Below, one piece after another: positions 4,810-61,650 of a DNA stretch of 64,000 nt. The stretch's first letter is position 1. Each line of letters opens with the position of its first letter. Position numbers and translations under genes: made by a program. This DNA comes from an uncultured Candidatus Saccharibacteria bacterium (GTDB lineage: Bacteria > Patescibacteriota > Doudnabacteria > UBA920), in assembly GCA_964477745.1 (NCBI GenBank), contig CAYZEI010000001.1, forward strand, positions 64,393 through 128,392, written 5' to 3'. The notes below the pieces were generated by a model, which was not told the DNA's origin, searched no databases, and worked only from the letters and a program-made list of their open reading frames with translations.

Positions 4810-5406
4810 TTATTGAATCTCCCCTGTTACCACCCAGCGAGCCAAGGCTGTACCGACCGGATATGAGGTCTGCAGGGTAATCAACTTTTTAGTATTCCCT
4901 TTTTGGTCTAAGACAGAAAGATCGTTCGCCGAAACTCGCCGACTGCTTGTTACCACATAAGTAAATTTATTTCCGTTTTCATCGCTAATATTTATTTCCG
5001 CACCAAGACTAATGGATGGCAAAACCGCGAACACCGTTTTATACTTGCCCTGATTCCAAAAAAAATCCGAGGAGTGACCAAAAAAATATGCATTACCTAA
5101 GTCCCCGGGATTAGAAGTCCCCGGAAAATGAACAACCCCTTGCTCCAATGCTTTTTGATATACCGTTTCCGAATTTTCGGTAACATAAACAACCGGCGCG
5201 GAAATATTCAGACTTGAAATTTCCAATCGGTTTGCCTGCATTTTTTTTGGGATACGCTTGTAGGATTCAGAAAATACATAAACATAAGTTCTCCCGCCAA
5301 ACAAGTATCGAAAATTTGCTAAAAAATAATTAAAATTTAAAACCAAAATCACCACGGGTAAAATACCTATTAAAATACCTATTTTTCTTTTTTTAGATAA
5401 TCCCAT
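4810..5406 (-). CDS. Sortase-like transpeptidase homologue (TLQTSYP in place of TLxTC)
   Basis: N-terminal TM anchor, conserved His (FFGHSS) and Arg (LARW) positions, TLxT[S]xP where catalytic Cys expected; adjacent to LPXTG protein. Confidence 0.55.
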   Translation of the reverse strand: MGLSKKRKIGILIGILPVVILVLNFNYFLANFRYLFGGRTYVYVFSESYKRIPKKMQANRLEISSLNISAPVVYVTENSETVYQKALEQGVVHFPGTSNPGDLGNAYFFGHSSDFFWNQGKYKTVFAVLPSISLGAEINISDENGNKFTYVVTSSRRVSANDLSVLDQKGNTKKLITLQTSYPVGTALARWVVTGEIQ

Positions 5407-5473: not shown

Positions 5474-7093
5474 TTAAACCAATTTAAGTTTTTTATCCGC
5501 TAAAACCAAGGCGATGCCGAATATCAACAAAATGTAGCCCACCGGCATTCCGGTTCTCGGTAAAGTTGTGGAAGCTCCTAATACTTGAGGAACCGGATTA
5601 CTGGTTGCCACAGCAGGAACATCTGTTGATGCTCCTAATACCATAGGCGACCCCGTGGTTACTAAAGTTGGAGTAACACCGCCACCGGAAGGAATTCCAC
5701 TTCCACCACTACTTCCTCCCCCGCCGCTTCCTCCGCTACCGCCACCTGATATTGTGGACACGCTTAGCTCAACACCAGTGACTTCCGGAGAGCCGTGAGA
5801 AACCGGGCGGAAAAAATAAGTTGAGCCGGCGGTTAATCCGGAAATAACTACGCTATGAGTGGTGATTAAACTCGCATCTTCTACCGAAGAATTTGCATAA
5901 CCATAATTAGCATCACTTCCTAAAACCGAATGAGAAACCGTATCGTAAACTACGCGACTGGTTGCCGGATGGTTTGTGGTCCAAGTAATTGTGGCCGAAG
6001 TTTGACCAACTTCTCCCAATTGTTCACCGGAAATTTCCAAATTCCAAGTATTGGTAATTACACACTCTGTTTGAGAATCAACCAATACTCTTGTCGAACC
6101 CTCCGCGCAAGACTCACTAAAAGTTGTTGCATACCCTTCCGGTCCGGATTCGCTAACGGCATATCGGCCCGCAGTAAGCGTATAGGAAGTGCCGGTAACC
6201 GAGCCGGGCTGAGGACTGCCGACAACATCTTCAGAAACCTCTCCGACAGTTTTAACATGAATACTAAAATCAGATGAAGTTGCTGTTCCGCCAACAACCA
6301 ACTTTGAGACCTTCAAAGTTCCGGTTGAACCTTCGCCTTCTCCCCCACCGCTGGCTTTATCGGTAGCTTCCACTGTACAGGCGTTAATATCTCCTACTGC
6401 TATATTTCCGCTACAACCGGAAGAATAAGTAAAATCATACCCTGCGTCTGACGTGGAAATATCGTAAGCACCGGCATCCATGGTTATTAACGTCCCTAAG
6501 GAAGAGCCGGGAAAAGATGCTGAGCTAGGATTGGTGGCCGTAACATTAAAAGTAAAATCGCCGGCGGTTTTGGTTCCGCCATTGCTATTGGTAACGTTCA
6601 CCAACACATTTACACTGGGTGCATATGCCGTGTTGGTTACGGTACAAGTTTTAGTGTCTTCCCCTAGAGTGATTGAAGAGGAACAATTATCATAAGATGT
6701 AATATAGCCCGGAACAGCAACTTCAGTAACCCGATAATTTCCGTTCAGTGAAAAATTAAACGGCACACCGGTTTCGCTACCGACAAAATCCTGATTCACA
6801 ATTAAAGCTCCCGGCATAGTTGGGATGTATCGTAAATGCAAATTAAAATCACCGGCAGTTTTGGTACCGCCGAAATTATTTACCACATGCTTTACCACCG
6901 TTAAATTGGACACGGCAACAGCCTGAACCGGAGTTCGTCCGTACATAACTATTAAGGCGACAATTAATAACCCGCCGACTAATTTATTCCAAGCAATAGG
7001 CTCGTAAGAATTCCTTACGGCATCACCATAAACTCTTCGTACTGCAATCCCTTGCTTGGTATGTTTGATTGTGATTTTTGATTTTTTTATCAT
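5474..7093 (-). CDS. Cell-surface protein with C-terminal LPRTG sorting signal and repeated NGGTKTAGDF beta-domains
   Basis: N-terminal TM/signal, Gly/Ser linker, LPRTG + hydrophobic stretch + KKLKLV tail. Confidence 0.7.
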   Translation of the reverse strand: MIKKSKITIKHTKQGIAVRRVYGDAVRNSYEPIAWNKLVGGLLIVALIVMYGRTPVQAVAVSNLTVVKHVVNNFGGTKTAGDFNLHLRYIPTMPGALIVNQDFVGSETGVPFNFSLNGNYRVTEVAVPGYITSYDNCSSSITLGEDTKTCTVTNTAYAPSVNVLVNVTNSNGGTKTAGDFTFNVTATNPSSASFPGSSLGTLITMDAGAYDISTSDAGYDFTYSSGCSGNIAVGDINACTVEATDKASGGGEGEGSTGTLKVSKLVVGGTATSSDFSIHVKTVGEVSEDVVGSPQPGSVTGTSYTLTAGRYAVSESGPEGYATTFSESCAEGSTRVLVDSQTECVITNTWNLEISGEQLGEVGQTSATITWTTNHPATSRVVYDTVSHSVLGSDANYGYANSSVEDASLITTHSVVISGLTAGSTYFFRPVSHGSPEVTGVELSVSTISGGGSGGSGGGGSSGGSGIPSGGGVTPTLVTTGSPMVLGASTDVPAVATSNPVPQVLGASTTLPRTGMPVGYILLIFGIALVLADKKLKLV

Positions 7094-7413
7094 AAGTTTT
7101 ATTTAACTGATTAATTGCCTAAAGCCACTATTAATAGTGACTAATATAAGCAATACTAATGTCTGTTAGACAATTTTATCACAATTATGTTGTAACTTAC
7201 AAGCATTTTAGTGTATAACCTGTTGATGATTGGTGCTAATTAAAAATGCTTATAATTAAAAGCGAAATTGCCCTTAAGAAGGGTTTACAAACCACAAAAA
7301 ATTTGGTAAAATTATAAATCTTGTCGAATGTTCGGACGGCAAGAAATGTCCTGGGTAGCTTTTCTCAATTGAGCCCAGGAATCCTCTATTCCGAACCAGG
7401 AGGAGGGCTGGAG

Positions 7414-7965
7414 ATGATCCATCCCCAGAAGAGTGGTTACCGTGCGGTAGCCATATTCACTCTCGTCTTGGTTGCCGTGGTGCTTTGCGCCCCGGTCGCC
7501 ACAGGCGCGCCAATCAATCTCTATAACACGTTGGACAACACAGCCACCGGGCTGATTTGCACGACGTGTACACCAATCGCTACCAGTGGCCAAGTGGTCT
7601 CTGGATACGCGATCGGGTCTTCGGACCCGAACATCAACAACACAGGAGCGTGGCTGTTCGCGTTGATCTTCCCTGACCTTGGAGGAACTGACGCGGGTCT
7701 TGCAGACCACGTTAAATTGCTAACCGGGGCATCCATGCCAATGCTTGCCCAAGTGTTGATTGATCCCCACACCACCTTCACAGGAACCTCTTCCGGCGGC
7801 ACCTACACCGTTGGAGACGCCTCCTACGTTGTCCACATTGTCAGCGGTGGTAATGGAGGTGGCGGTGGCGGCAACGATCCGGGCGGACAGGTGCCGGAAC
7901 CTGCCAGCGTCGGACTCGTTGGCGCCGGAATCGGCGCAATCTTGTACTCCCGCTTCCGGCGGTAG
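7414..7965 (+). CDS. Secreted protein with PEP-CTERM sorting signal (VPEPASVGLVGAGIGAILYSRFRR)
   Basis: AGGAGGG RBS 7 nt upstream of ATG, signal peptide, Gly-rich linker, canonical PEP + TM + RR C-terminus; locally GC-rich. Confidence 0.6.
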   Translation: MIHPQKSGYRAVAIFTLVLVAVVLCAPVATGAPINLYNTLDNTATGLICTTCTPIATSGQVVSGYAIGSSDPNINNTGAWLFALIFPDLGGTDAGLADHVKLLTGASMPMLAQVLIDPHTTFTGTSSGGTYTVGDASYVVHIVSGGNGGGGGGNDPGGQVPEPASVGLVGAGIGAILYSRFRR

Positions 7966-8038
7966 AATTATTTGGAACGGAAGGAGGAGCCGTTTCAAAC
8001 TTTTAGGAGGATACTAACTTACCCTTAATTGGGCTTTC

Positions 8039-8072
8039 GCCGGAGTACATCCGTATGTACTCCGGCTTTTTT
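8039..8072 (+). terminator. Rho-independent terminator after PEP-CTERM gene
   Basis: GCCGGAGTACATCCGTATGTACTCCGGC hairpin followed by TTTTTT. Confidence 0.65.
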
Positions 8073-8136
8073 ATTTTTCCCTAAAAAACAAAATCCCTCC
8101 CCCGTATAAACGGAGAAGGGATTTTAAAAATTTAAA

Positions 8137-8637
8137 CTAGCGGGTAATACATATTGGCGGATTTCCAACAGAAGATTCAACTGTGTAAGCACAAACTGTA
8201 ACTCTGCCAGTAGTTGCATCTTTAAATACATGATAGCCTGTATCATAAGAAGTCGGACTAACATAAGCAGCCACTGCAGGTGTTGTTGTGCTTGGATCAA
8301 AAGGCAAAGCTGAAATATAGGTCGGTACCAAACATGGAGCAATATCATATCCGGCAGAATTACCCATCCTTGTTGCTGCTGTCGGGATATCAGTTGTACA
8401 ACCAGTCCCTGTAAACACTCCTTTATTGTCAGCCATCCTTTGTCCGACTGCATTTAAAATTGCATTTACATTGCTTGTTCTTTGAGTATTTCTGGATAAA
8501 GCAAATTGTCTCGCCGGGTTAATGGCGATTAATACGATTACCGCCAAAATGGCAATAATACCGATAACCACCAAAATTTCAATAAGGGTAAACCCTTCTT
8601 GCTTTGAAGCTAAAAGCTTCTTCATATTTTTAGTCAT
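8137..8637 (-). CDS. Type IV pilin (prepilin; KQEG/FTLIEILVV class III signal)
   Basis: Prepilin leader ending in Gly followed by FTLIE and hydrophobic helix; own promoter region, likely major pilin; true start may be internal ATG at 8625. Confidence 0.8.
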   Translation of the reverse strand: MTKNMKKLLASKQEGFTLIEILVVIGIIAILAVIVLIAINPARQFALSRNTQRTSNVNAILNAVGQRMADNKGVFTGTGCTTDIPTAATRMGNSAGYDIAPCLVPTYISALPFDPSTTTPAVAAYVSPTSYDTGYHVFKDATTGRVTVCAYTVESSVGNPPICITR

Positions 8638-8859
8638 ACCTTTAAATTTAATTAATTCTAAATTTGAACTTTTATATTTTTGGCCAAACTGCGGTCAAAA
8701 TTAATCTTTAATAATGTACAGAATTTATATCACGTCCTATAAAAAATGTCCAGCCTTTATTTATGCCAAACTTTAAGTTTTTTCTGCAAAATAAAGGGGA
8801 AATTTTGTCTCTTATCGACCGTTTAATTTTTAAGAGACTTAAAATATCGATTTATAAAC

Positions 8860-9321
8860 TTAAGAACAAACATCCGTAAAATTTGGGGCGGTAAATTTTG
8901 GGCATTCTACCCATGAAATAGTTTTAAAATTATTTGCCGGATCCACTGTAATTAATAAATTTGTATAACTACCTTGGTACTGCGCTTGGGTTCTGACCTC
9001 TTTGTAAGCGCCGTTAGTGAACACACCGGCAATTACACAAGATTGTCCGGCACTAACTAAAACGTTATCACCGCCTCCGGCCGGACTATAGCTCGAATTA
9101 TTTACTAAATTCAACAATGCCCTGTCTACACAAGCCTGTGCTAAAGAATAACTTCGTTCTTTATATTCGCTTTCTAAAATATTTACCCGGCTAAAATAAT
9201 TTATACTGCTTAAAGCAAAGCTAACGGTAACCAACAAAAGCGTAATAATAATTACGGAAGTAACCGCAATGTACCCCCGCTCGGTATTTTTGCCGTGTGT
9301 TTTTTTAGCGGTACTTATCAT
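8860..9321 (-). CDS. Pilin-like / minor pilin protein
   Basis: N-terminal hydrophobic helix, 4-nt overlap with upstream pseudopilin gene, in pilus operon. Confidence 0.5.
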   Translation of the reverse strand: MISTAKKTHGKNTERGYIAVTSVIIITLLLVTVSFALSSINYFSRVNILESEYKERSYSLAQACVDRALLNLVNNSSYSPAGGGDNVLVSAGQSCVIAGVFTNGAYKEVRTQAQYQGSYTNLLITVDPANNFKTISWVECPKFTAPNFTDVCS

Positions 9322-9788
9322 TTACGTATATATTTTGTTAATTTAAAATCTTGTCCGCTAATTTTAAAATATGCCGTCAACCAAATCTGAATTCCGTTGG
9401 TGTTTCTCACAAACGAAAAATCTGTAATTTGCACATTTTGACTATTTAAATTTTGGCCGTCCATTTGAACATTACTACCGATATTGGCAAAAGTTATTGA
9501 AACCGGTGACGCATACCGAGTGACAGTTAAGTGTTGCGGATCGGGCACAGAAATGTCAGAAGCGGAACCCATAGCCCAACCGATTTTTTTTAAAATAAAA
9601 TTGCCTTCCTGTTGAATCACAATCTTTTTCTGCACCTGATCGGCAGAAGCAATTGTCTGAAAAGTTACACCCAGCAGACTCCCAACCAACAAAGCAAAAA
9701 ATGCAATATAAATTAATGTCTCAATTAAGGTAAACCCGTCAGAAGGCTTGCAGGCAAATGTTAAACTGCGGGCAGTTTTGAATTTCAT
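9318..9788 (-). CDS. Prepilin-type pseudopilin (GFTLIETLIY)
   Basis: Class III signal motif G/FTLIE. Confidence 0.65.
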   Translation of the reverse strand: MKFKTARSLTFACKPSDGFTLIETLIYIAFFALLVGSLLGVTFQTIASADQVQKKIVIQQEGNFILKKIGWAMGSASDISVPDPQHLTVTRYASPVSITFANIGSNVQMDGQNLNSQNVQITDFSFVRNTNGIQIWLTAYFKISGQDFKLTKYIRK

Positions 9789-9829
9789 AAATATTTACGG
9801 TAAATCTTTTTTAAGATTATACTCCTACT

Positions 9830-11314
9830 CTACTGCATCTTTAATATCTTCAAACCTTCTTGAGATTTAATGGCCAAATAAACCAAGCCGTTCTGGTAAA
9901 CAATCCCGGCGCCGGCGCCGGACAGCGATGCGGTGGTACAGGCTGCGGGTATGGATGCCGGGGATGACACGTTATACACCTGGAAACCCACAAACGACAG
10001 ACTGCTGGCCACAAAGGCATAGTTCCCGGAAACGGTAATCCCGTTAGCCGCGTAACTTAAAGTCTTGGCACCAAGCTTGGTTAAGATCGGCGCGGCAGAA
10101 TTATCTAATACATAAAAGCCACGCGGGAGCACTGAACCTCCAACCGGCCCCGGGGACGTTCCTAAATAAAACTTTCCTCCGGAAAAATAAAGTGACTGCC
10201 CACCGGCTGCACCAAGATCGCTAAATTGCGTGGCAAACACAGGAGCACCACTTGCGATGTTTAAAACAATTTCCTGAGCGGCACTGCTATTCACTGCCAA
10301 GTAAGCATAATCTCCCCGAACATATATGGCATTTACTCTGGAGCCGACTTCATAAGACCCTCCGCTCACCAACACCGGACTGCCGGGCACGGTGGCATCT
10401 ACCACAAAAAATTCCGGTCCGACTGAATTATTCTCGGTAGCGATATAAACATAGTCATGATTATTGTTAGGGTTTTTGTAGTACACAATAGCGGTAGCTG
10501 GCATAGCATTTCCGGGCAAAGCAAAAGTCGAGCCGGAAATAATTGAAGCCGATCCCGGAACGGTGACATCTGCTATTTGAAATTGTCCGGTGCTTTTGGC
10601 CGTAGCTAAATAGGAATAAATATGTGGACCAACTGTTGCCGTATCAACCGCATTTACGCTACCACTGCCCGTGGACAAAGATTTTAAAACACTTGGAGAC
10701 TGAAAATTATTTGCGTCAACTACATAAAAATCGTCTCCCGAAGAGGCACTCGGTCTAACGGCTAAATATACCGTATTACCGATTACATCCAAACCGTTTG
10801 CAAAACTCCCGCTGGGCAAATTTAACGGACTTCCTGTTGTTTGAATGCTGGGACAAGTCGCCGGTGGCGCAGAGTTAGGACCGCACCCGCCTTGAGCCAC
10901 ACACTGATTCAAATTAACCAGGGTGCTGGATAGCACAACATTTTGGTTGCGCCCGTCAATTACCCACGAGACCGTTTCCGTAACATTTTTTACATCGCTA
11001 GAAACGTCTATCACACTCAATGAGCAACTATAATCCATTGCCGTCCCACAAGCATATGCCGAAATATTTTTAATCCCGTCAAAATTGGTCTGAGCCAAGG
11101 AACGAAAACTTTCCACGGCTTCTTGGGCAATTTGTAAGGCCTCATTGTTGCGCTGTGAGTCCACAGAAATGGATTGGTTGCCAAAAGCCAGGGTCGCTAC
11201 TCCGCCTAAACTAATGGAAAAAATTGAAAAGGCAATCAGCATTTCCAAAGTTCCATATCCCGCCAGTTTTGAGTTTTTTTGATTATTCATTTGCTTTACA
11301 TTAAAATTATTCAA
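9830..11314 (-). CDS. Large pilin-leader protein with LVIVD-type beta-propeller repeats (putative pilus tip/adhesin)
   Basis: AGYGTLEMLIAF prepilin-like N-terminus; repeated YAYLAV / YVYIAT / GPEFFVVDATVPGSP motifs typical of LVIVD repeats. Confidence 0.55.
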   Translation of the reverse strand: MNNFNVKQMNNQKNSKLAGYGTLEMLIAFSIFSISLGGVATLAFGNQSISVDSQRNNEALQIAQEAVESFRSLAQTNFDGIKNISAYACGTAMDYSCSLSVIDVSSDVKNVTETVSWVIDGRNQNVVLSSTLVNLNQCVAQGGCGPNSAPPATCPSIQTTGSPLNLPSGSFANGLDVIGNTVYLAVRPSASSGDDFYVVDANNFQSPSVLKSLSTGSGSVNAVDTATVGPHIYSYLATAKSTGQFQIADVTVPGSASIISGSTFALPGNAMPATAIVYYKNPNNNHDYVYIATENNSVGPEFFVVDATVPGSPVLVSGGSYEVGSRVNAIYVRGDYAYLAVNSSAAQEIVLNIASGAPVFATQFSDLGAAGGQSLYFSGGKFYLGTSPGPVGGSVLPRGFYVLDNSAAPILTKLGAKTLSYAANGITVSGNYAFVASSLSFVGFQVYNVSSPASIPAACTTASLSGAGAGIVYQNGLVYLAIKSQEGLKILKMQ

Positions 11315-11320
11315 AATATA

Positions 11321-11779
11321 TTACCAATCCACTCTGCCGTTTGCCCCAATGACAATGGAAGTGCTTCGCTTCCCGTCACCAAGTGTAATTGTCCCGGCGC
11401 CGGCAACCACATTCCCCGACACTTGAGCAAATACTATTTCTCCCGGACTGCTGTGGTTTATGTAAGTATCGGCAGGAATTACTTGATCTTGAGAATTGGC
11501 GCCTCCATAACCGGAGCGGTCAAAAAGAATATACTTATCGTTTTCAAAATATACCCCATGAGCAGTTTGACCAAGATTGTTTAAACTTTTACTGCGGGCT
11601 TTTTGTAAAATTGAAACCAGCGTGTCGCGTTCGGAATTAAAGGCATAAGAGCGGTAAAGATCTAAAGTTACCAACAAACCCAAAGTGGCGAGTACAGACA
11701 TAATTCCCATCACCACTAAAAGTTCAATTATGGTAAATCCTTTAATCTCCCTTGCGGGTTGATAATTAAAAATTCTCAT
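11321..11779 (-). CDS. Prepilin-type pseudopilin (KGFTIIELLVV)
   Basis: Class III signal motif. Confidence 0.7.
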   Translation of the reverse strand: MRIFNYQPAREIKGFTIIELLVVMGIMSVLATLGLLVTLDLYRSYAFNSERDTLVSILQKARSKSLNNLGQTAHGVYFENDKYILFDRSGYGGANSQDQVIPADTYINHSSPGEIVFAQVSGNVVAGAGTITLGDGKRSTSIVIGANGRVDW

Positions 11780-11780
11780 A

Positions 11781-12875
11781 CTAGGGATGTAATTTCTGGG
11801 TTACGGAATAAATCGGCGTAATAATCGAAATCGCCACAAATCCAACCATTAACCCCATAAATACCATAAGCACCGGCTCAATTAGACTGGATAAATTTTT
11901 TGTTAAATCATCCACTTCTTCTTCGTACATTTCGGCTAAATACAAAAAAGTTTCGCTTAAATTTCCCGCGGTCTCTCCGATTGCCACCATATGAGACATC
12001 ATGTCCGGAAAATATTTAGGGTGGGTAATTAAATAACTGGAAATCGGCTGACCTCGACTGACTGCCTGGCTAATAAATTCAAACTGCTCCCGGTAAACCA
12101 AATTTTCTGTCGTCGTGGCGGTAGTGGACAAAGCCTCGTCAATCCGTGCATCCCCTTTTAACAACAAGCCCATGGTTCGGGCGAAATTTGCCAAGTAATA
12201 ATCCTGAGCAATAGTCCCGGCTATGGGTAATTTTAATATAAAATTTTGGACCGGTTTTTTAAACCAGGGTTTTCGCATTAAAAAATAAACCGTAACTATT
12301 CCGGCAATAAACAATAAAAGAACCAACCAACCATAACTAATTAAGAACCGACTTACCACTATTAAAATTTTTGTGGACACCGGCAACGGAACATTAATAC
12401 TGGCAAAAATCGGCAACACTTTCGGGAACACAACTACTGTTAAAAGACCGATCATGCCGATTGTGGCGACAACAATAAAAACCGGGTAAATTAAAGCGGC
12501 CTGAACTTTTTTTCGTAGAGCCTGATTTTTTTTCAGTTCCTCGGCTAAATACTGCAAATTTTCCGCCAATATTCCGCCATGCTCGCCAACCCGAATAATA
12601 TTTACTGCAAAATCTCCGAATACCCGACGAAATTTTTCCATTGCGGTAGACAAAAAGTGCCCATTAGCCACATCGGAAATAATAGACTCAAAAATTACGC
12701 GGGAAGACTTTTGCTTAATTTGCTTGGTAATTAATTGCAAACTTTCCAAAATTGGCACTCCGGCCTTCATTAAAAAAGACAGCCGCTTGGCGAACAACAC
12801 CTGTTCTTGTTTGGAAAAGCGCGGTGTGTTAAACCATGAAAAAGATTTTTTTGTGTCTGCGGTTACGTTGTTCAT
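11781..12875 (-). CDS. pilC: Type IV pilus assembly platform protein PilC (GspF family)
   Basis: Two GspF-type domains, three TM segments, conserved ...GE.G.L...L ... motifs. Confidence 0.85.
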   Translation of the reverse strand: MNNVTADTKKSFSWFNTPRFSKQEQVLFAKRLSFLMKAGVPILESLQLITKQIKQKSSRVIFESIISDVANGHFLSTAMEKFRRVFGDFAVNIIRVGEHGGILAENLQYLAEELKKNQALRKKVQAALIYPVFIVVATIGMIGLLTVVVFPKVLPIFASINVPLPVSTKILIVVSRFLISYGWLVLLLFIAGIVTVYFLMRKPWFKKPVQNFILKLPIAGTIAQDYYLANFARTMGLLLKGDARIDEALSTTATTTENLVYREQFEFISQAVSRGQPISSYLITHPKYFPDMMSHMVAIGETAGNLSETFLYLAEMYEEEVDDLTKNLSSLIEPVLMVFMGLMVGFVAISIITPIYSVTQKLHP

Positions 12876-12897
12876 AAAAATAAACTAATAAAATAAT

Positions 12898-14118
12898 TTA
12901 TTCGTGAGCTACTCTCAAAACTTCTTCCACTGTGGTTATCCCGGCCGCGGCTTTTTCCATACCGTCTTGCCCCATTGGGATCATACCGTGAGTAATGGCA
13001 ATCTCTTTAATCTCTGAGGCGGTGGCTTTTTTTAAAATCGCCTCACGAATTGCATCATCTATCTCCAATACTTCGTGAATCGCCACTCTCCCCTTGTAGC
13101 CGGTCTGATTACAATCCTCGCACCCCTTGCCTCTATAAAATGTTTTATACTTTTTTAATATTCCGACCGGTATTTCCTCGGACAACGCTTTTATTTCCGT
13201 TGGGGTAAATTTATACTCCGCCTTACAGTTGCCACAAATTTTTCTTACCAATCTTTGACCAATGGCTACATTTACCGTGGAAGCAACCAAGAAGGCTTCT
13301 ATCCCCATATCCAGTAGGCGTGGTAAGGTGGTGGCCGGATCGTTCGTATGCAAAGTGGAAAGTAACAAGTGTCCGGTTAACGCGACATTAATCGCTATTC
13401 CGGCTGTTTCAGAATCTCGGATTTCTCCCACCATAATTATATTAGGATCTTGTCTTAATATAGAGCGAAGGCCGTTGGCGAAAGTTAGGCCGGTTCTGGG
13501 GTTTACACCTATTTGTTCAATGCCGGCCACTGCGTACTCAATTGGGTCTTCAATGGTAATAATAGAGACTTCCGGTTTACTAAGCATTTTAATAATTGTA
13601 TACAGAGTTGTTGTTTTTCCCGAGCCGGTCGGGCCGGTGGCCAAAATCATTCCGTAAGGCTTTTTCATTGCCCTAAGAATTTTTTTTCGGTTTGGTTCGG
13701 AAAAACCCAAGGTCTCCAGAGTATGGCTTTCTTCTTGAGCGGACAATAACCTCATTACGGCATTTTCGCCGTAATAAGTCGGGGCAATGGAAACGCGAAC
13801 ATCCAAGGGTTCTTGGTCTTTAAATTGCAAACGGAACCGACCATCTTGCGCAGCTTGGTGTTCATCGGTGCGTAGACCGGAAAGAATTTTAATTCTGGAG
13901 ATAACTTCTCCGTGAATGCTTTTTGGAAAGGATAAGGTCTCTATTAATACTCCATCCACCCGAAGTCTAACCCGAACATTTTTTTCTGCCGGATCAATAT
14001 GAATGTCCGAGGAACGGATTTCGCTGGCATAGGCCACAATATCTTGGACTAAATTAATAATAGATACTTGGCTGGGCTTATTTATTTCTTCCTTAATTTT
14101 TGAAAGCAATAATGACAT
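12898..14118 (-). CDS. pilB: Type IV pilus assembly ATPase PilB/GspE family
   Basis: Walker A GPTGSGKTTT, Asp/His boxes, tetracysteine CGNC...CEDC motif. Confidence 0.85.
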   Translation of the reverse strand: MSLLLSKIKEEINKPSQVSIINLVQDIVAYASEIRSSDIHIDPAEKNVRVRLRVDGVLIETLSFPKSIHGEVISRIKILSGLRTDEHQAAQDGRFRLQFKDQEPLDVRVSIAPTYYGENAVMRLLSAQEESHTLETLGFSEPNRKKILRAMKKPYGMILATGPTGSGKTTTLYTIIKMLSKPEVSIITIEDPIEYAVAGIEQIGVNPRTGLTFANGLRSILRQDPNIIMVGEIRDSETAGIAINVALTGHLLLSTLHTNDPATTLPRLLDMGIEAFLVASTVNVAIGQRLVRKICGNCKAEYKFTPTEIKALSEEIPVGILKKYKTFYRGKGCEDCNQTGYKGRVAIHEVLEIDDAIREAILKKATASEIKEIAITHGMIPMGQDGMEKAAAGITTVEEVLRVAHE

Positions 14119-18783: not shown

Positions 18784-19002
18784 ATGCTACGGAATTATAA
18801 ATAAATACCTACAGAAAACTACAGAATCTAATAGTCAAACCATTTTTATAGTTTTTTGTAGTGGTTCATTTAGACAAATCAAGCAACAAGCTAGTCATCA
18901 TTCTACCACTTATGTCAAGACCGGGCAAGGGGCTAAGACTTAAATTAAAGCGCCCCGCGACATATGCCGCGGGGCAAGAACAAAGAATCCCAGTTGCCTG
19001 AT

Positions 19003-19248
19003 TCAAGAACTACCCCTTGGCCAAGGCAGAGAGGGTTTTTCTACGTCTCGAAGTTTGTTTGCCTGGGGGACTACAACCGTCCAGGCGACCCAGCAAGCGC
19101 AAGCCTGTTGGATATCCTTGGGCTGAGCCAAGAACCACGAAATAATGGCTCCGCAACCCACAAAAGCCAACACAATGACGCCGATGGCAAACACTCTCCA
19201 GACAGCGTGAACTTTGCCATCGAGGACAACAAAAAACTCGAGCTCCAT
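19003..19248 (-). CDS. Small membrane protein (81 aa) in GC-rich mini-island
   Basis: AGGGGGG RBS 4 nt from ATG (MELEFF...), one TM helix, hairpin terminator downstream (18950..18975). Confidence 0.35.
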   Translation of the reverse strand: MELEFFVVLDGKVHAVWRVFAIGVIVLAFVGCGAIISWFLAQPKDIQQACACWVAWTVVVPQANKLRDVEKPSLPWPRGSS

Positions 19249-19463
19249 ACACCCCCCTATCTTATTTCCTCCCCGGCATGAAATTCCGGAGGTTGAGTGC
19301 ACCAAGCATTACCGCGACGACATTCCCGTTCGCACAGAAACAACATGCCAAGCAATGCCACAATGGACCCAAGGGTCCATAAAACAAGATTTCTCTTGAT
19401 CATAACCAGTAAATTATCACTTTATAGACACAAGGTCAACGGATAGATATAATTTAACTACTT

Positions 19464-21410
19464 ATGAATTCCGACACTAAACTAAAATCTAAAGCTTCCG
19501 AGTTCCCAAAGCTACCTGGTGTGTACCAGTTTATAAGCGCTAGCGGGGAAGTTCTTTACGTGGGTAAAGCCAAAAATTTGCGCGTGCGAGTTAAGCAATA
19601 TTTTGGTCACGATGATAGCCGTCCCCAAATCCCTTTTTTAATGGCCGAAGCAACCAACGTTACCTATACGGTAGTAGACAGCGAATTGGAAAGCGCATTT
19701 TTAGAAAACACGTTAATTAAACAACATCATCCGCGGTTTAATATTGACCTAAAAGACGACAAAAATTACGCCTTTATAAAAATTGACTTCTCAACCGAAA
19801 TCCCCCAAATCACTTACACTCGTTCTGTCGACCCGCCTATAAGCTATAAGCTAGCTCCTAAAAGCTTGTTCTTCGGTCCCTACACCGCAGCCTATAAAAT
19901 TCGCAACACCTTAAACTTGGTGCGAAAAATTTTTTCCTTCTGTGCCAATACCAAAGTCGGTAGTCGGCCTTGTTTTTATTACCACATGCATCGCTGTCCC
20001 GGTGTTTGCGTGGGGAAAATTAGTTTGACGGAGTACCGGGAGCACCTGGAAAAAATTGCCAAATTCTTACAGGGCGACACCGCCGGCGTATATAAAAAAA
20101 TCAAGGCGGAAATGCAAAAATCCGCGAATCATAAACGTTTTGAGACCGCAGCTCGTTTGCGTGACCAACTTAAAGCCTTGGAACTACTAAATGAAAAACA
20201 AAATGTCATTTTAGCGAAAAAAGTTGACTGGGATATTATTTCACTGTCGACAGAAAGCGGCTTTTCTTGCGTAAATTTATTTAAGATCCGGGGGGGGAAA
20301 TTATTTGATAAAGAAAATTTTATCTACGAACTTCCAACTTCAGAACAAGAAACAATTAGCACTACAGAAATCTACGGGGGAAAAATTATGCAACGGTTTG
20401 TTGAACAGTATTATCAAGAAACCAGCTTTGCCCCAAAAATTATTTATACCCAAATAAAACTATTAAACGAAAAAATTCTGGAACAAATAATTAAATCCCG
20501 ATTTCATAAAACAATAAAAGTTATTTTGCCACAAAAAGGCAAGTCCCTAAGTTTAATAAAACTGGGGGGTATGAATGCAAACGAATTTTTAAAAACCTGG
20601 CTAACGGACAAGGCAGGTAATTTAGATAAAATTAACCAAAGTCTAGAACAATTAAAGCAGACTTTAAATTTACCTAGCCTGCCAAACCGCATTGAGTGTT
20701 ATGATATTTCCAATATTCAGGGGACCAACCCGGTCGGTAGTATGGTGGTATTTTCCGCCAAAGGCGGATCCGCCTCCGGCGGAAAAAATTTTGGATTTCA
20801 AAAATCTGAATACCGGAAATTTAAAATTCAGGGGAAAAATACGCCCGATGATTTTGCCATGATGAAAGAGATGCTGTCTCGTCGACTCGCGAGAAGCATC
20901 GGCGACAAAACCAAAGTCCAAATTTCCCGCCCGCAGTCGCCTGAAGCTCCAGCTGATGGCGGGCAGGCCAATAACAAAACCTGGCCCATTCCTGACCTCA
21001 TAGTCATCGATGGCGGAAAAGGTCAACTCAATGCTGCCCTGTCAGTCCTTCGCGCTATCCGCTATCCGTTATCCGCTATTCCAGTTATTGGACTCGCGAA
21101 GAGGCTTGAAGAAATCTTTTTACCTAACCAAGAGGAGCCAATTATTTTGGGTCACGACCAACCGGCACTCCAGTTGCTCCAACGCCTGCGTGATGAAACC
21201 CATCGTTTTGGCATTACCTTCCACCGCCAGCTCAGAAGTAAACAAGCTGTTAAATCTGCACTCGACGATATCCCCGGAGTGGGCCCAAAAACAAAAAAAC
21301 TCTTAAAAACCAAATTTGGCACAGTGGCACAAATAAAAAAAACCCCTCTTGCCGACCTGTCGGCAATTGTGGGCGAAAAATTGGCGAAAATTATTCAACA
21401 AGGACTATAA
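19464..21410 (+). CDS. uvrC: Excinuclease ABC subunit C (carries two in-frame palindromic insertions)
   Basis: GIY-YIG N-terminus (VYQFISASGEVLYVGKAKNLRVRV), UvrBC-interaction and RNaseH-like/HhH C-terminus. Confidence 0.95.
   Translation: MNSDTKLKSKASEFPKLPGVYQFISASGEVLYVGKAKNLRVRVKQYFGHDDSRPQIPFLMAEATNVTYTVVDSELESAFLENTLIKQHHPRFNIDLKDDKNYAFIKIDFSTEIPQITYTRSVDPPISYKLAPKSLFFGPYTAAYKIRNTLNLVRKIFSFCANTKVGSRPCFYYHMHRCPGVCVGKISLTEYREHLEKIAKFLQGDTAGVYKKIKAEMQKSANHKRFETAARLRDQLKALELLNEKQNVILAKKVDWDIISLSTESGFSCVNLFKIRGGKLFDKENFIYELPTSEQETISTTEIYGGKIMQRFVEQYYQETSFAPKIIYTQIKLLNEKILEQIIKSRFHKTIKVILPQKGKSLSLIKLGGMNANEFLKTWLTDKAGNLDKINQSLEQLKQTLNLPSLPNRIECYDISNIQGTNPVGSMVVFSAKGGSASGGKNFGFQKSEYRKFKIQGKNTPDDFAMMKEMLSRRLARSIGDKTKVQISRPQSPEAPADGGQANNKTWPIPDLIVIDGGKGQLNAALSVLRAIRYPLSAIPVIGLAKRLEEIFLPNQEEPIILGHDQPALQLLQRLRDETHRFGITFHRQLRSKQAVKSALDDIPGVGPKTKKLLKTKFGTVAQIKKTPLADLSAIVGEKLAKIIQQGL
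20757..20792. repeat. In-frame palindromic element type B, copy 1 (GCCAAAGGCGGATCCGCCTCCGGCGGAAAAAAT) inside uvrC
   Basis: Near-identical to 62755..62794 in tsaD; encodes AKGGSASGGKN insertion. Confidence 0.7.
20926..20968. repeat. In-frame palindromic element type A, copy 1 inside uvrC
   Basis: 41/43 identical to 49364..49406 (which lies in a minus-strand gene); encodes SRPQSPEAPADGGQA. Confidence 0.7.
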
Positions 21411-26134: not shown

Positions 26135-26755
26135 ATGAAAAATCGCCTACTAACATTTTTATTAATTATTGCCGGCCTATTGCCAATAATCCGTTTATCT
26201 CAAGACGGGGTTTCTTCCATTCTGATTTTTTCAATATTTGTCCTGGTATTTTTATGGACCGGGCTTCAGCGTGTTTCCGCTAAACTGCCCATTCCCCTTA
26301 CCATGCAATTTATTGGCTTGGGAATTATTGTTGGGGGAATTACCCAAATTTTTGTGCAAATGGAAGGCTTTGAAAAATCTTTCAGCCCAAATCCGGTTAG
26401 TCATTTCATCCAAGCCCTGACTATTTATTTTTGGGTTATTGTTGCTTGGTATTTTATGCTAAAAAAATATAACTTCTCAACCTGGGATATTTATTGGGTG
26501 ACAGGAATTTGGGGAGTGGTGTTTGAAGCTGTCCTACTGTATGGAGCACTCAATCCATTAATCTGGTTATTTATTTTTGTGGTTTACGGGTCCTTTGCAA
26601 CTATTCCATTTTTGCTGACGCAGGGAAAATTTATGTTGATCCCTCGACCCAAACCAAGCAAAAAAAATTACCTGACCATGTTCGTCCTGCTTGTACTTGC
26701 CCTGGTCATGTCTAACCTACTAATTTTTGTTTTGTCTAAATTTGGGGTCCGTTAA
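26135..26755 (+). CDS. Integral membrane protein (6 TM), unknown function
   Basis: Hydrophobicity pattern only. Confidence 0.5.
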   Translation: MKNRLLTFLLIIAGLLPIIRLSQDGVSSILIFSIFVLVFLWTGLQRVSAKLPIPLTMQFIGLGIIVGGITQIFVQMEGFEKSFSPNPVSHFIQALTIYFWVIVAWYFMLKKYNFSTWDIYWVTGIWGVVFEAVLLYGALNPLIWLFIFVVYGSFATIPFLLTQGKFMLIPRPKPSKKNYLTMFVLLVLALVMSNLLIFVLSKFGVR

Positions 26756-28172: not shown

Positions 28173-28195
28173 GTGTGACTAAAAGGAGGCAATCA

Positions 28196-28507
28196 GTGCT
28201 TGCGACTAGTGTGGTTCTTATTGAATGCGAGGAGGAGGCATATGCCAGATTCCTTCATGACCAATGGCCAAGCCTACAATCCTGGTGTGGACTCTTTCCC
28301 ACCCATGGACCAGTAGAGGTCCATCGTAAGAATGTGGTCATCGCGTTGACTTGGGGTGGCCAATTCAAGCCAGAAGAAACCCCTACCTACGTCAGGGGGG
28401 TCAAAGTTTTCGCCCACTCGGGCGACTTCCATATTGCCAGGCAGGAACTCTTGGCACATAACAACACTCAGGTTCATCCTGAGACCCTCTTCGGGGGAAA
28501 AAGTTGA
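28196..28507 (+). CDS. Hypothetical 103-aa protein in GC-rich mini-island
   Basis: AAGGAGG RBS 6 nt upstream of GTG start; hairpin terminator 28538..28575. Confidence 0.35.
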   Translation: MLATSVVLIECEEEAYARFLHDQWPSLQSWCGLFPTHGPVEVHRKNVVIALTWGGQFKPEETPTYVRGVKVFAHSGDFHIARQELLAHNNTQVHPETLFGGKS

Positions 28508-30801: not shown

Positions 30802-30954
30802 AAATTTATTCTACTTCCTCAACCCCTTTAAGTCAATTTTCGAGTTTGTCTAATTTTATATGTAATTACGTATAAAATTGGGCAAAAGAAAAAGCGACAG
30901 GGACGTATGGAGAATACGTCAAACCTGTCGCCTATGGCGGATGAACATGAACGG

Positions 30955-31158
30955 TCAGTAGGTGCGCGCGAAGAGGAACGAGCGCATTTCACGATCGGCC
31001 TGACGATCATGCAACTCTCTCTCTTTTTTGGAAACAAGCGCCTCGGCTGCGCGCCCACGGGGAGCACCTTTCATTTTACGCCTTCGGGCGGCTTTTGGCC
31101 CACCTTTTACCATTCCGCCTGCCGCGGTTCTAATTCGTGGCTGACCATGACCACTCAT
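30955..31158 (-). CDS. Small highly basic protein (67 aa, R/K/G/P-rich) in GC-rich island
   Basis: AAGGAGTG RBS 6 nt from ATG; hairpin terminator 30889..30935. Confidence 0.3.
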   Translation of the reverse strand: MSGHGQPRIRTAAGGMVKGGPKAARRRKMKGAPRGRAAEALVSKKERELHDRQADREMRSFLFARTY

Positions 31159-31319
31159 ACAATTCACTCCTTTGAACTGGATTTCGGTGACCTTGAAAAT
31201 AAATTTAGGCAACCGAATTTAATATAAATATTAATCCCGTTGTCGGAATTTGTCAAAAGAAAGAGGCGCGGGGAGTCATTGGGAATTGACTCGCGACCGC
31301 GCCCTTGATGATTTCTGAA

Positions 31320-31775
31320 CTACCGATTCAAGCCGGCAAGCTCTGGCAGTGTGCCGTAGTAGCCGACATACCGTTTTTGGCCGGCGACATTTGCTTCAAA
31401 CAATAGAGCCAGCACCCCTACCTTTCCGGAGGGTCTATCGGTCTCCAACTTCCGACAGTCCCAGACCCGAAACTCCGAGTCGCTTGATTCAACGCTGAGA
31501 CGACGCCCCAAACGGCGCCATTCGGCTGCCAGTTTGTCGTACGACATTTTGTGCTTGCGCGATTGCCCTGCCCAGCAGGACTTTTCCTGGGCGTAAAAAC
31601 CATACACCCCGGCTTCGGTTAGAAGTTCGAGGATATAAACCAGAAGCACCTGGTCTCGACACAACCGGACGTGGCACAAATCTACACGTCCTCCTGACGG
31701 ATCTTTCAGAAATAGAGCCACTGGCTCACCTCCTACAAGTCTGTATTTTTCATAAGGCGAAATTAATCGCCCCAA
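31320..31775 (-). CDS. Hypothetical 151-aa protein in GC-rich island (TTG start)
   Basis: Open frame with GC-rich codon usage distinct from host; terminator hairpin 31262..31297. Confidence 0.3.
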   Translation of the reverse strand: MGRLISPYEKYRLVGGEPVALFLKDPSGGRVDLCHVRLCRDQVLLVYILELLTEAGVYGFYAQEKSCWAGQSRKHKMSYDKLAAEWRRLGRRLSVESSDSEFRVWDCRKLETDRPSGKVGVLALLFEANVAGQKRYVGYYGTLPELAGLNR

Positions 31776-31882
31776 GATTTGAGCAGTATAACAAATAAGT
31801 TTAATAAAAGAAAGAGGCGGCCCAGGGTTACCAGGCCGCCTTGCACATCGCGTTGTGGGCGGGTGCTTGCGGGGGAACTATT

Positions 31883-32341
31883 TCAGGCATGAGCAGACGA
31901 TGCGGAAGGGACGAGCCCGGCCCGTTGCATTACCAACGGACCATGTATCCACGCCAGGAGTTGGAGGTGAGAAAATGTGACCTCCGCCTTTCGGATGGCT
32001 TCGCCATCAAAGGCGTGTTCGATCAGAATTTGGACACACCCCTCTTCTGGCTGAGGCTCGCACTGAACCATGGTGAACCCGTCACCTTTCTTCGTTCCTT
32101 GGTTTCGCTGTTCCCGGAGCGCCTTACCGCACAGACGAAACCGCTTCGCGAAGACCCCAAAGGCCAATTGGGGATTTCTCAGCTCAGGACAAGAATCCAT
32201 GTGAGCACGGAGATACTCCGCGACATCACAGGATTTTACTTCCCCTACCAACGGCTTGATGACAATATCTCGAGGAGCTACATCTCCTGAGGCCAAACTG
32301 GCACCTGAAGAGAACGTCAAACGATCAGTGTGTTTGCTCAT
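31883..32341 (-). CDS. Hypothetical 153-aa protein in GC-rich island
   Basis: AGAGGA RBS, ATG at 32341; terminator hairpin 31812..31842. Confidence 0.35.
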   Translation of the reverse strand: MSKHTDRLTFSSGASLASGDVAPRDIVIKPLVGEVKSCDVAEYLRAHMDSCPELRNPQLAFGVFAKRFRLCGKALREQRNQGTKKGDGFTMVQCEPQPEEGCVQILIEHAFDGEAIRKAEVTFSHLQLLAWIHGPLVMQRAGLVPSASSAHA

Positions 32342-32573
32342 CAATCCTCTTTTGTCTATAATATTTCCGGCCGTCCTGAGAAAATTTGAACGCCGAATTT
32401 AATTTAAATATTACTCCTACATAAACCATCTTGTCAAAGCCTCTCCTTGGCTAACGTTAGAGATACTGATATACTGATGCATGCTGATGGCGCTGAGAAA
32501 TTCCGATATCATTAAAATTTGATATCAGTATTATCCGTTTCATCTGTATTAATCCGTATATCAGTATCATATT

Positions 32574-36549: not shown

Positions 36550-36951
36550 ATGAGATCGCGACTGATTTTTCTACTGCACTGTTGCTGTTTATTCTCCTTG
36601 GTTGCGAGTTCGCTCGCTTCCGAGTTCATTAAACACACCCACCCCAAGTTCTTTGCCGGAACTTTTATTTACGGCCTCGGACTTGCCTCGGTCCTAACTT
36701 TAGCATCGTGGATGGTGTTCGGCGGTTGCCCGCTTACGTGGCTAGAAAACCACTACCGCAGACTGGAAGGCCGGCCAACGTACCACGGATCGTGTATGGT
36801 CCACTACTACCCCACACGGTGGTTAGGCCAGCCCAACTCGCGCTACATCCACTGCGCACTTTTTGCGATCATGGCTTACCCCGTGGCCGTCCGCTACAGC
36901 GAGCAAATCAAAAGCCTCTGCCTTTCGGCAGTCCGCTTTCTCCTCGAGTGA
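36550..36951 (+). CDS. Membrane protein (CPLTWLE motif, DUF2784-like) in GC-rich mini-island
   Basis: AAGGAGGG RBS, TM helices, terminator 36948..36983. Confidence 0.4.
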   Translation: MRSRLIFLLHCCCLFSLVASSLASEFIKHTHPKFFAGTFIYGLGLASVLTLASWMVFGGCPLTWLENHYRRLEGRPTYHGSCMVHYYPTRWLGQPNSRYIHCALFAIMAYPVAVRYSEQIKSLCLSAVRFLLE

Positions 36952-52990: not shown

Positions 52991-53066
52991 TCTTGGCAAA
53001 GACACTAAAAGTTGTGGTAAAATATACGGACTAACAATTATCCTTTAAAAAAGGAGTACCAAATTT

Positions 53067-61643: not shown

Positions 61644-61650
61644 TCTATCT

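What the first reader, a model, noticed from the sequence alone, without database searches (positions are those of the whole stretch)
7414..7965. PEP-CTERM sorting-signal protein in a genome that otherwise uses sortase/LPXTG
The C-terminus VPEPASVGLVGAGIGAILYSRFRR is a textbook PEP-CTERM signal. Such signals are exosortase substrates, normally found in Gram-negative EPS-producing bacteria together with EpsH. The gene lies in a ~60% GC island next to a type IV pilus operon and a sortase/LPRTG pair. No exosortase is recognisable in this window.
Basis: partly seen in the sequence, partly recalled or inferred. Interest (0 to 1): 0.6.

Follow-up and report, generated by a model that had tools for sequence, protein, structure and literature searches.

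The report
PEP-CTERM surface protein in CPR bacterium
A small secreted protein of an ultra-small Candidatus Doudnabacteria (Patescibacteria) bacterium ends in a PEP-CTERM sorting tail of the kind known from Gram-negative bacteria; it is neither contamination nor a stray import, because related genomes keep such a gene beside the same adhesin gene and an unusual cysteine-less sortase.

Summary
ATG 7414 to stop 7965 encodes 183 aa: a signal peptide, a roughly 110-aa domain, a Gly-rich linker, and a tail that passes both PEP-CTERM models (TIGR02595 21.7 bits against a cutoff of 16; PF07589 21.8 against 20.7). GC is 0.58 and GC3 0.63, in a genome of about 0.41.

It is not contamination. The identical protein sits in the same context in five independent assemblies. 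It is under purifying selection (dN/dS 0.15).

The window is Candidatus Doudnabacteria (CPR). In four other related lineages a PEP-CTERM gene also flanks the orthologous LPRTG adhesin and sortase pair. Three unrelated mature domains carry the same invariant PEP tail, and each measured gene is a GC3 outlier.

The neighbouring sortase homolog has Ser in place of the catalytic Cys, as do 30 of 49 homologs examined.

Between strains about 98-99% identical in the flanks, the mature domain is an old divergent allele (dS about 2), while the signal peptide and tail are conserved.

No exosortase lies in the 64 kb window or in about 36 kb of related loci. The whole genome could not be searched, so the processing enzyme is unknown.

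Verdict: a real, conserved surface-protein cassette and a new variant of a known sorting signal.

The parts
7284..7312 (+). sigma-70-like promoter (TTTACA, 17-nt spacer, TAAAAT, with TG) in the AT-rich spacer shared head-to-head with the LPRTG gene
   Evidence: 10 of 12 matches. This is a consensus match only.
7398..7407 (+). Shine-Dalgarno stretch AGGAGGAGGG, 7-10 nt upstream of ATG 7414
   Evidence: sequence
7414..7965 (+). CDS of the 183-aa PEP-CTERM protein, stop codon included
   Evidence: dN/dS 0.15-0.25 against the L006 allele
7414..7506 (+). N-terminal signal peptide (MIHPQKSGYRAVAIFTLVLVAVVLCAPVATG | AP; A at -3 and G at -1)
   Evidence: sequence inspection; 100% conserved at protein level in L006
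7515..7820 (+). strain-variable part of the mature domain: about 35% nucleotide divergence and a 9-nt in-frame indel against L006, while the flanks differ by mostly 0-6 mismatches per 100 nt
   Evidence: dS about 2.0, dN 0.30
7843..7890 (+). Gly-rich linker SGGNGGGGGGNDPGGQ; its length varies by one Gly in P0001
7891..7962 (+). PEP-CTERM sorting domain: VPEP motif, an approximately 16-residue hydrophobic helix, and RFRR
   Evidence: tail dN 0.01, dS 0.15
8039..8076 (+). intrinsic terminator (12-bp stem, 7 of them G-C, followed by a T run)
5474..7093 (-). 539-aa LPRTG surface protein (SpaA_2 prealbumin-like domains plus a Pur_ac_phosph_N/fn3-like domain), divergently transcribed partner
4810..5406 (-). 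198-aa sortase-domain protein with no cysteine; TLQTS replaces TLxTC, while His (FGHSSD) and Arg (ALARW) are kept
8137..14118 (-). type IV pilus block: prepilin-type genes (8137-8637, 9318-9788, 9830-11314, 11321-11779), a PilC/GspF-like gene (11781-12875) and a T2SSE ATPase gene (12898-14118). The C-terminal part of the first pilin is also hypervariable between strains.

Best explanation
This is a genuine gene for a small cell-surface protein of a Candidatus Doudnabacteria (Patescibacteria/CPR) bacterium. It is a conserved third member of a surface cassette, alongside an LPRTG SpaA-like adhesin and a His-Ser-Arg sortase homolog, next to type IV pilus genes.

Shown: the gene has its own promoter-like site, ribosome-binding site and terminator. 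It encodes a signal peptide, a variable domain of about 110 aa, a Gly-rich stalk and a model-validated PEP-CTERM tail. It is under purifying selection. The exposed domain exists as old, divergent alleles that are swapped between otherwise near-identical strains through the conserved ends.

Inferred: the protein is exported by Sec. The tail's hydrophobic helix and Arg cluster hold it in the cytoplasmic membrane, and the variable domain faces outward as a strain-specific surface determinant.

Inferred with less certainty: the P-E-P motif is invariant across three unrelated mature domains and across long divergence. This suggests the tail is read and probably cleaved by a dedicated enzyme. The most likely candidate is an exosortase/archaeosortase-family protein encoded outside the window, acting as archaeosortases do in single-membrane archaea.
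For: The PEP-CTERM models are passed in this protein and in four further lineages: window 21.7 bits, L013 20.2, L016 22.6 and L018 23.8, against a cutoff of 16. L066/L067 has a precomputed PF07589 hit (weak).

The identical protein lies in an identical context in five assemblies. dN/dS is 0.15 in the variable middle (dS about 2) and 0.07 in the tail.

Taxonomy: ribosomal protein S18 is identical to that of a Candidatus Doudnabacteria MAG, and S6, SSB and EF-P are at least 90% identical to it.

The PEP-CTERM gene is adjacent to the orthologous LPRTG gene plus sortase in L013/L014/L015, L016, L066/L067 and L018, in three different arrangements. The mature domains are unrelated; only the tails align. 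Within family B, 31% identity is kept at the same site while the neighbours are 44-46% identical.

No other PEP-type tail was found among 493 ORFs in 475 kb of related loci. Promoter-like site and terminator.
Against: No exosortase lies in the 64 kb window or in the roughly 36 kb of L013/L014 and L016. PEP-CTERM genomes normally hold many copies (median 8) and have an outer membrane and EPS genes (PMC1569441). Here one copy is seen, and CPR bacteria are thought to lack an outer membrane. No paper in the searched library links exosortase or archaeosortase with CPR.

The loci were found through the sortase or the adhesin, so how exclusive the linkage is cannot be judged. The persistent GC3 excess is unexplained, and it could mean repeated import rather than vertical descent. 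No usable structure model was obtained (pLDDT 40).
Confidence: 0.5

Rival explanations
1. Plain membrane anchor. The tail was inherited from exosortase-bearing donors but is not processed in this organism. It only tethers the protein to the cytoplasmic membrane through its helix and Arg cluster.
For: No exosortase is in view. The genomes are small. Only a single copy is seen. High GC3 and unrelated mature domains fit repeated import. Non-CPR relatives with PEP-CTERM tails exist in GC-rich DNA (P0006, P0008).
Against: P-E-P is invariant in all six CPR sequences, although the helix residues have diverged (L013 against L067 against L016). The tail is under strong purifying selection. A simple anchor would not need the motif.
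Confidence: 0.27
2. The neighbouring His-Ser-Arg sortase homolog, or another non-exosortase enzyme specific to CPR, reads the PEP tail. The cassette would then hold one enzyme and two signal types.
For: The sortase homolog is the only enzyme conserved next to the PEP-CTERM genes in all five lineages. The two signals share the same tripartite build, and LPXTG tails appear as top noise hits of the PEP-CTERM model (PMC1569441). The active-site change marks this sortase clade as unusual.
Against: The Ser-type sortase is found with LP[RK]TG substrates in many loci that have no PEP-CTERM gene, including L030, L038, L039 and L040. LP[RK]TG is therefore its evident cognate signal. There is no precedent for a sortase acting on PEP motifs.
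Confidence: 0.12
3. A recent horizontally acquired orphan with no role in this organism: a foreign GC-rich island.
For: GC 0.58 and GC3 0.63 in a genome of about 0.41. Only two close homologs exist among 5.8 billion proteins. The distant relatives that carry PEP-CTERM tails come from GC-richer DNA.
Against: A PEP-CTERM gene is conserved at this cassette in five lineages. dN/dS is 0.15 with saturated dS between two alleles. There are no flanking repeats or mobility genes. The gene has its own promoter-like site, ribosome-binding site and terminator.
Confidence: 0.07
4. An artefact: contaminant DNA, a chimeric assembly, or a GC-rich non-coding RNA with a chance ORF.
For: GC-rich sequence is poor in stop codons, and several overlapping ORFs lie on other frames. 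The predicted RNA is unusually stable (z -9.0 from the tool, -6.1 with 40 shuffles of my own).
Against: The same junctions appear in five independent assemblies at 99.7-100% identity. The substitution pattern follows codon positions (pS 0.70 against pN 0.24) and the indel is in frame. There is no Rfam match. The predicted structure of the variable part is not kept in the L006 allele (z -4.8 against -1.4).
Confidence: 0.02

Closest known systems
PEP-CTERM/exosortase (EpsH, XrtA) protein sorting of Gram-negative, EPS-producing bacteria (Haft et al. 2006, PMC1569441)
   Same: Full-length match to the 24-residue PEP-CTERM model, at the extreme C-terminus. It has the VPEP motif, a hydrophobic helix and a basic cluster. 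[quoted passage not shown]
   Different: The host is a CPR bacterium with sortase/LPXTG and type IV pilus genes. No exosortase, EPS locus or PrsK/R/T genes are in view. One copy is seen rather than many. The gene is linked to a sortase cassette.
LPXTG/sortase cell-wall anchoring of Gram-positive bacteria
   Same: The same tripartite C-terminal signal architecture, and the gene lies directly beside an LPRTG substrate and a sortase-fold enzyme.
   Different: This protein has no LPXTG-like motif. The neighbouring sortase homolog has Ser in place of the catalytic Cys.
PGF-CTERM/archaeosortase A of archaea
   Same: An exosortase-family system working in a cell with a single membrane. This is the nearest precedent for how a PEP-type tail could be processed without an outer membrane.
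   Different: The motif differs (PGF against PEP) and so does the domain of life. No archaeosortase homolog was detected here.
NF038129 family PEP-CTERM proteins (NCBIfam)
   Same: Similar size (194-aa model). The distant relative P0008 matches the model end to end (32 bits), and the window protein matches positions 85-194 weakly.
   Different: The scores are far below the 65-bit cutoff (window protein 13.2 bits), so it is not a member.
Antigenically variable surface genes with conserved ends, such as type IV pilin alleles
   Same: The conserved N- and C-terminal parts flank an old, divergent central allele in strains whose flanks are about 98-99% identical. The adjacent pilin gene shows the same pattern.
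   Different: There are no silent cassettes or DGR template in the window. The variation looks like allelic exchange at population level.

Membership tests
PEP-CTERM sorting domain (TIGR02595 / PF07589) | Score at or above the curated cutoff, over the full model | tested here: met
   TIGR02595 21.7 bits against 16, residues 160-183 to model positions 1-24 of 24. PF07589 21.8 bits against 20.7.
PEP-CTERM sorting domain (TIGR02595 / PF07589) | PEP motif, hydrophobic helix and basic cluster at the extreme C-terminus, together with an N-terminal signal peptide | tested here: met
   VPEP-ASVGLVGAGIGAILYS-RFRR followed by the stop codon. The N-terminus has K/R residues, a 17-residue hydrophobic core and A-x-G before the predicted cleavage site. 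This rests on sequence inspection; no signal-peptide predictor was available.
PEP-CTERM/exosortase system | An exosortase (EpsH/Xrt family) is encoded in the same genome | tested here: inconclusive
   None was found among the window ORFs with three or more predicted membrane helices (Pfam and NCBIfam, E up to 0.1). None appears in the precomputed Pfam tables of L013/L014/L016. Only about 64 kb of the genome could be examined, and the GTDB scans found no relative.
PEP-CTERM/exosortase system | The host has an outer membrane and EPS biosynthesis genes (PMC1569441) | tested here: inconclusive
   The host is Candidatus Doudnabacteria. By established knowledge CPR bacteria lack outer-membrane biogenesis genes. 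The window has sortase/LPXTG genes and no EPS locus, but the envelope cannot be determined from 64 kb.
PEP-CTERM/exosortase system | Several PEP-CTERM paralogs per genome (median 8) | tested here: inconclusive
   One was found in the 64 kb window. One was found per related locus, and none elsewhere in 475 kb of related loci.
NF038129 family PEP-CTERM protein | Score at or above 65 bits | tested here: not met
   13.2 bits. The relative P0008 scores 32.2 bits.
Sortase substrate (LPXTG-type signal) | An LPXTG-like pentapeptide before the helix | tested here: not met
   There is no such motif in the last 50 residues. The neighbouring gene carries LPRTG.
Sortase (the neighbouring gene, 4810-5406) | Sortase fold with a His-Cys-Arg catalytic triad | tested here: not met
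   The fold and domain are met (PF04203, 73.8 bits). His and Arg are kept. The Cys position is Ser and the protein contains no Cys at all. All NCBIfam sortase class models score below cutoff.
Diversity-generating retroelement target | A template repeat and a reverse transcriptase nearby, with variation at template adenines | tested here: not met
   There is no copy of 7500-7830 elsewhere in the window. The differences from L006 are spread over 300 nt, at all bases, and include an indel.

The most novel reading that the evidence does not exclude
In this CPR clade the PEP-CTERM tail is read by something other than a classical exosortase. The candidate would be the adjacent His-Ser-Arg sortase homolog or an undescribed membrane protease. 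The three-gene cassette would then be a self-contained, previously unknown dual-signal surface-sorting system of single-membrane ultra-small bacteria, which displays a strain-variable determinant next to the adhesin and pilus used for host contact.
Probability: 0.13. Interest if true: 0.85.

Novelty: new variant of a known kind. Interest (0 to 1): 0.6.

Why it matters
PEP-CTERM was defined as a signal restricted to bacteria that have an outer membrane, EPS genes and an exosortase. Here a model-validated PEP-CTERM protein is conserved in a CPR lineage, physically tied to an LPXTG adhesin and a sortase homolog whose nucleophile is Ser.

If an exosortase-family enzyme exists in these genomes, the known range of that system extends to ultra-small episymbiotic bacteria. 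If none exists, a conserved sorting motif is being kept for an unknown reader.

Either way, the cassette names three testable surface components (a variable PEP-CTERM protein, an LPRTG adhesin and an atypical sortase) next to the type IV pilus genes. Type IV pili are implicated in host attachment in CPR bacteria.

Tried and rejected
- Contamination or chimera: rejected. Five assemblies share the same junctions.
- Non-coding RNA: rejected. There are no Rfam hits at gathering or permissive thresholds, and the substitution pattern is codon-wise. The strong folding z-score is not conserved in the L006 allele or in L018.
- DGR-driven variation: rejected. There is no template repeat or reverse transcriptase in the window. 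A DGR does exist next to the cassette in L016, but it targets a different gene.
- Mobile element: no flanking direct or inverted repeats.
- Phage or plasmid origin: no tblastn hits in the phage or plasmid collections and no PHROG hit.
- Species genome look-up: both GTDB scans found nothing, so a genome-wide exosortase search was impossible.
- Structure: the AlphaFold2 model built on a 5-sequence alignment was unusable (mean pLDDT 39.9), so no fold search was run.
- Remote homology between the three mature-domain families: only the tails align.
- P0003 (a 729-aa repeat protein) and the contexts of P0018 and P0039 proved uninformative.
- Coordinate slip: some early minus-strand references (4810-5403, 5474-7090) were offset by the stop codon. 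This affected only exact look-ups, not the homology results.

Full report
**1. The observation**

The + strand carries an ORF at 7321..7965. The ATG at 7414 is preceded by AGGAGGAGGG at 7398-7407. It opens a 183-aa product that begins with a typical signal peptide, MIHPQKSGYRAVAIFTLVLVAVVLCAPVATG|AP. Gene callers in five public assemblies chose the same start.

The last 24 residues, VPEPASVGLVGAGIGAILYSRFRR, match the whole PEP-CTERM model. TIGR02595 scores 21.7 bits against a cutoff of 16, and PF07589 scores 21.8 against 20.7.

GC in 200-nt windows is 0.56-0.605 from 7400 to 8000, against 0.28-0.39 in the flanks. The gene's GC3 of 0.63 is near the top of the window's ORFs; only a 133-aa DUF2784-like ORF at 36550-36951 (0.66) is higher.

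- a 539-aa LPRTG protein with SpaA_2 and Pur_ac_phosph_N domains (5474-7093, minus strand);
- a sortase-domain protein (4810-5406, minus strand);
- a block of prepilin, PilC-like and T2SSE ATPase genes (8137-14118, minus strand).

A promoter-like site lies at 7284-7312, and a strong intrinsic terminator at 8039-8066 followed by a T run. Together they bracket the gene. The GC-rich stretch coincides with this transcription unit.

**2. It is a real gene of this organism**

The identical protein is encoded in the same context in five independent assemblies. These come from Logan, NCBI and ENA, at 99.7-100% nucleotide identity, and one contig spans 14.3 kb. This excludes a chimera or contaminant.

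A sixth contig, L006, comes from a strain whose flanks differ by mostly 0-6 mismatches per 100 nt. Between 7515 and 7820, however, it differs at about 35% of positions and has a 9-nt in-frame indel. In that segment dS is about 2.0 and dN is 0.30, giving a ratio of 0.15. The signal peptide has no replacement. The tail has dN 0.01 and dS 0.15.

The sequence therefore evolves as a protein. The mature domain exists as old alleles exchanged between near-identical genomes through the conserved ends. The C-terminal part of the adjacent pilin gene behaves in the same way.

Several other readings were checked and excluded:
- No copy of the variable segment lies elsewhere in the window, so a DGR is not the cause.
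- No flanking repeats are present.
- No Rfam family matches.

**3. The organism**

Ribosomal protein S18 is identical to that of a MAG named Candidatus Doudnabacteria bacterium. S6, SSB and EF-P fall in 90% clusters with proteins of the same MAG. The window is therefore from Patescibacteria (CPR). Two scans of the GTDB species genomes found no relative of either the PEP-CTERM protein or the LPRTG protein. The lineage is thus poorly represented, and its whole genome could not be examined.

**4. Relatives of the protein**

Among 5.8 billion proteins only two close relatives exist, both from the same population. An exhaustive HMMER search and a profile search added a few distant relatives of the mature domain:
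- P0006 and P0008 also end in PEP-CTERM and come from GC-richer DNA.
- P0004 ends in a Thr-rich tail.
- P0005 has no tail and sits in a low-GC cluster of large unknown proteins, with weak phage-structural hits.

P0008 matches the NF038129 PEP-CTERM family end to end but below cutoff. The window protein scores only 13 bits against that family. The AlphaFold2 model was unusable.

**5. The decisive context: a conserved cassette**

The closest orthologs of the LPRTG protein are only 37-44% identical to it. I retrieved the surroundings of the three closest orthologs, and each locus contains a PEP-CTERM gene:
- L013/L014/L015: a 209-aa protein directly upstream of the adhesin gene, with the sortase downstream and pilus genes beyond it. 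TIGR02595 scores 20.2 bits.
- L066/L067: a 207-aa protein, 82% identical to the L013 protein. Its helix has diverged but PEP is kept.
- L016: a 206-aa protein in the same position. TIGR02595 scores 22.6 bits.

A search of metagenome contigs with the sortase added L018. There, a 249-aa PEP-CTERM protein (23.8 bits) lies just downstream of the sortase on the other strand.

The mature domains fall into three families that share nothing detectable except the tail:
- family A: the window and L006;
- family B: L013, L066/L067 and L016;
- family C: L018.

Within family B, L013 and L016 are 31% identical, while their adhesins are 46% and their sortases 44% identical. This fits long vertical retention at this site.

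P, E and P are invariant in all six sequences. Each of the four PEP-CTERM genes measured (window, L013, L016, L018) has the highest or near-highest GC3 in its locus, at 0.63-0.66.

In 475 kb and 493 ORFs of related loci, the only C-terminal tripartite signals were LPxTG tails next to the sortase and these PEP tails, apart from a few polytopic membrane proteins that matched the screen. More distant loci of the same sortase clade lack a PEP-CTERM gene; examples are L030, L038, L039 and L040. The loci were found through the sortase or the adhesin. The linkage is therefore real, but whether it is exclusive cannot be judged.

**6. The sortase next door is atypical**

The protein contains no cysteine. 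In alignments to solved sortases its TLQTS motif lies on the TLxTC motif of a class C sortase. The His of FGHSSD and the Arg of ALARW are kept.

In an alignment of 49 homologs, 30 have His-Ser-Arg. These include the window protein and all its nearest relatives at 36-56% identity, and they usually sit next to LP[RK]TG substrates. The other 19, more distant, keep His-Cys-Arg. The Ser is encoded by all four TCN codons across the clade, so it has been held by selection for a long time.

All NCBIfam sortase class models score below cutoff. I found no paper describing a natural Ser-type sortase.

**7. Mechanism**

Shown: this is a self-contained transcription unit encoding a signal peptide, a variable domain, a Gly-rich linker and a PEP-CTERM tail. 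It is under purifying selection, and it is conserved as a partner of the adhesin/sortase pair.

Inferred: the protein is exported by Sec. It is retained by the C-terminal helix and Arg cluster, and the strain-variable domain is displayed outward.

The invariance of PEP across unrelated domains, and across diverged helices, argues that something reads the motif.
- An exosortase/archaeosortase-family enzyme encoded elsewhere in the genome: about 0.45. The precedent is PGF-CTERM/archaeosortase in single-membrane archaea.
- No processing at all, with the tail acting as a plain anchor: about 0.27.
- The neighbouring Ser-type sortase or another novel enzyme: about 0.12.

No exosortase match exists among the window's membrane proteins or in the Pfam tables of L013/L014/L016. 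This covers only a few per cent of a genome.

**8. Comparison with what is known**

Haft et al. 2006 (PMC1569441) state three things about PEP-CTERM. It occurs only in bacteria with an outer membrane and EPS genes. It usually occurs in many copies. It co-occurs with EpsH. The tail here meets the sequence definition of the domain, but the system-level features are untested or doubtful. No paper in the searched library links PEP-CTERM, exosortase or archaeosortase with CPR bacteria. I file this as a new variant of a known kind.

**9. Unexplained points**

- The GC3 excess persists in every CPR copy. The family also stays near 57% GC in a host whose neighbouring gene has GC3 0.93.
- The predicted mRNA 7318-8010 is unusually stable, with z -9.0 from the tool and -6.1 with 40 dinucleotide shuffles of my own. 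The antisense strand gives -3.5 and the L006 allele -4.0. The structure of the variable part is not conserved. This may reflect codon composition or selection for mRNA stability. It does not overturn the coding reading.

Noticed in passing
window 4810-5406 (-); also L018-L046, L066: The sortase-domain protein has no cysteine: TLQTS stands where sortases have TLxTC, and His and Arg are kept. In 49 homologs, 30 (the nearest clade, next to LP[RK]TG substrates) have His-Ser-Arg and 19 more distant ones keep Cys. The Ser uses all four TCN codons. No description of a natural Ser-type sortase was found in the literature searched.
   Followed up: yes
window 8137-8637 (-): The C-terminal two thirds of the first prepilin gene are hypervariable (25-40 mismatches plus gaps per 100 nt) between the window and strain L006, whose flanks are about 98-99% identical. 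This is the same pattern as in the PEP-CTERM gene.
   Followed up: partly
window 7318-8010 (+): The predicted transcript folds far better than dinucleotide shuffles (z -9.0 with 20 shuffles, -6.1 with 40). The antisense strand gives -3.5. The signal is weaker in the L006 allele and absent in the L018 gene. There is no Rfam match.
   Followed up: partly
window 30907-32344; 36550-36951; 18964-19281; 28175-28507; 63465-63927: Further GC-rich patches (0.50-0.54, GC3 up to 0.66) hold short ORFs without family matches, except for a sub-threshold DUF2784 hit at 36550-36951. They could be foreign genes or unannotated RNAs. Rfam at gathering thresholds found only two tRNAs in the window.
   Followed up: partly
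window 2956, 3291, 36385, 37826, 41510, 42448, 45628, 47452: A family of AT-rich intergenic repeats of about 35-55 nt (TAGTAGATAGTATTTAGCATATAG-like) occurs in both orientations between genes (D3, D6, I2-I12).
   Followed up: no
window 52918-52964 and 53337-53378: Two perfect 42-nt copies, each containing a palindrome (CTGGACAATTCGCGCGAATTGTCCAG), flank a 91-aa ORF at 53031-53306 (D15, I4).
   Followed up: no
window 20926-20967 and 49366-49407: A 42-nt GC-rich repeat (CCCGCC..GGCGGGCAGG), 95% identical between copies, lies inside two unrelated genes (D8).
   Followed up: no
window 61621-62157 (+); 26135-26755 (+); 50870-51535 (-): Three polytopic membrane proteins have no family match. The first carries an HEAGH zinc-protease-like motif. 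The other two look related to each other, and one of them has no Cys. None matches exosortase models.
   Followed up: partly
L016 8029-10347: In a related lineage a diversity-generating retroelement (bAvd plus reverse transcriptase) and its likely target (199 aa, GC3 0.67) lie immediately downstream of the PEP-CTERM/adhesin/sortase cassette.
   Followed up: no
L007 678-1088: P0005, a tail-less homolog of the mature domain, is encoded in a tightly packed low-GC cluster (GC3 0.14-0.25) of large unknown proteins with weak phage head-closure and portal hits. The domain may also be used by a virus.
   Followed up: partly
window 7855-7875: The poly-Gly run of the linker differs by one Gly codon between assemblies (P0001 has 182 aa against 183 aa). 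This suggests slippage in the GGT/GGC repeat.
   Followed up: no
window 37868-40261 (-): A 797-aa secreted protein is built of diverged repeats with spacings of about 250-270 nt (D1, D2, D4, D5, D13).
   Followed up: no
L048-L050, L056-L063: Several of the distant Cys-type sortase loci have in-frame TGA codons at conserved Gly positions. This fits CPR lineages that read TGA as Gly.
   Followed up: no
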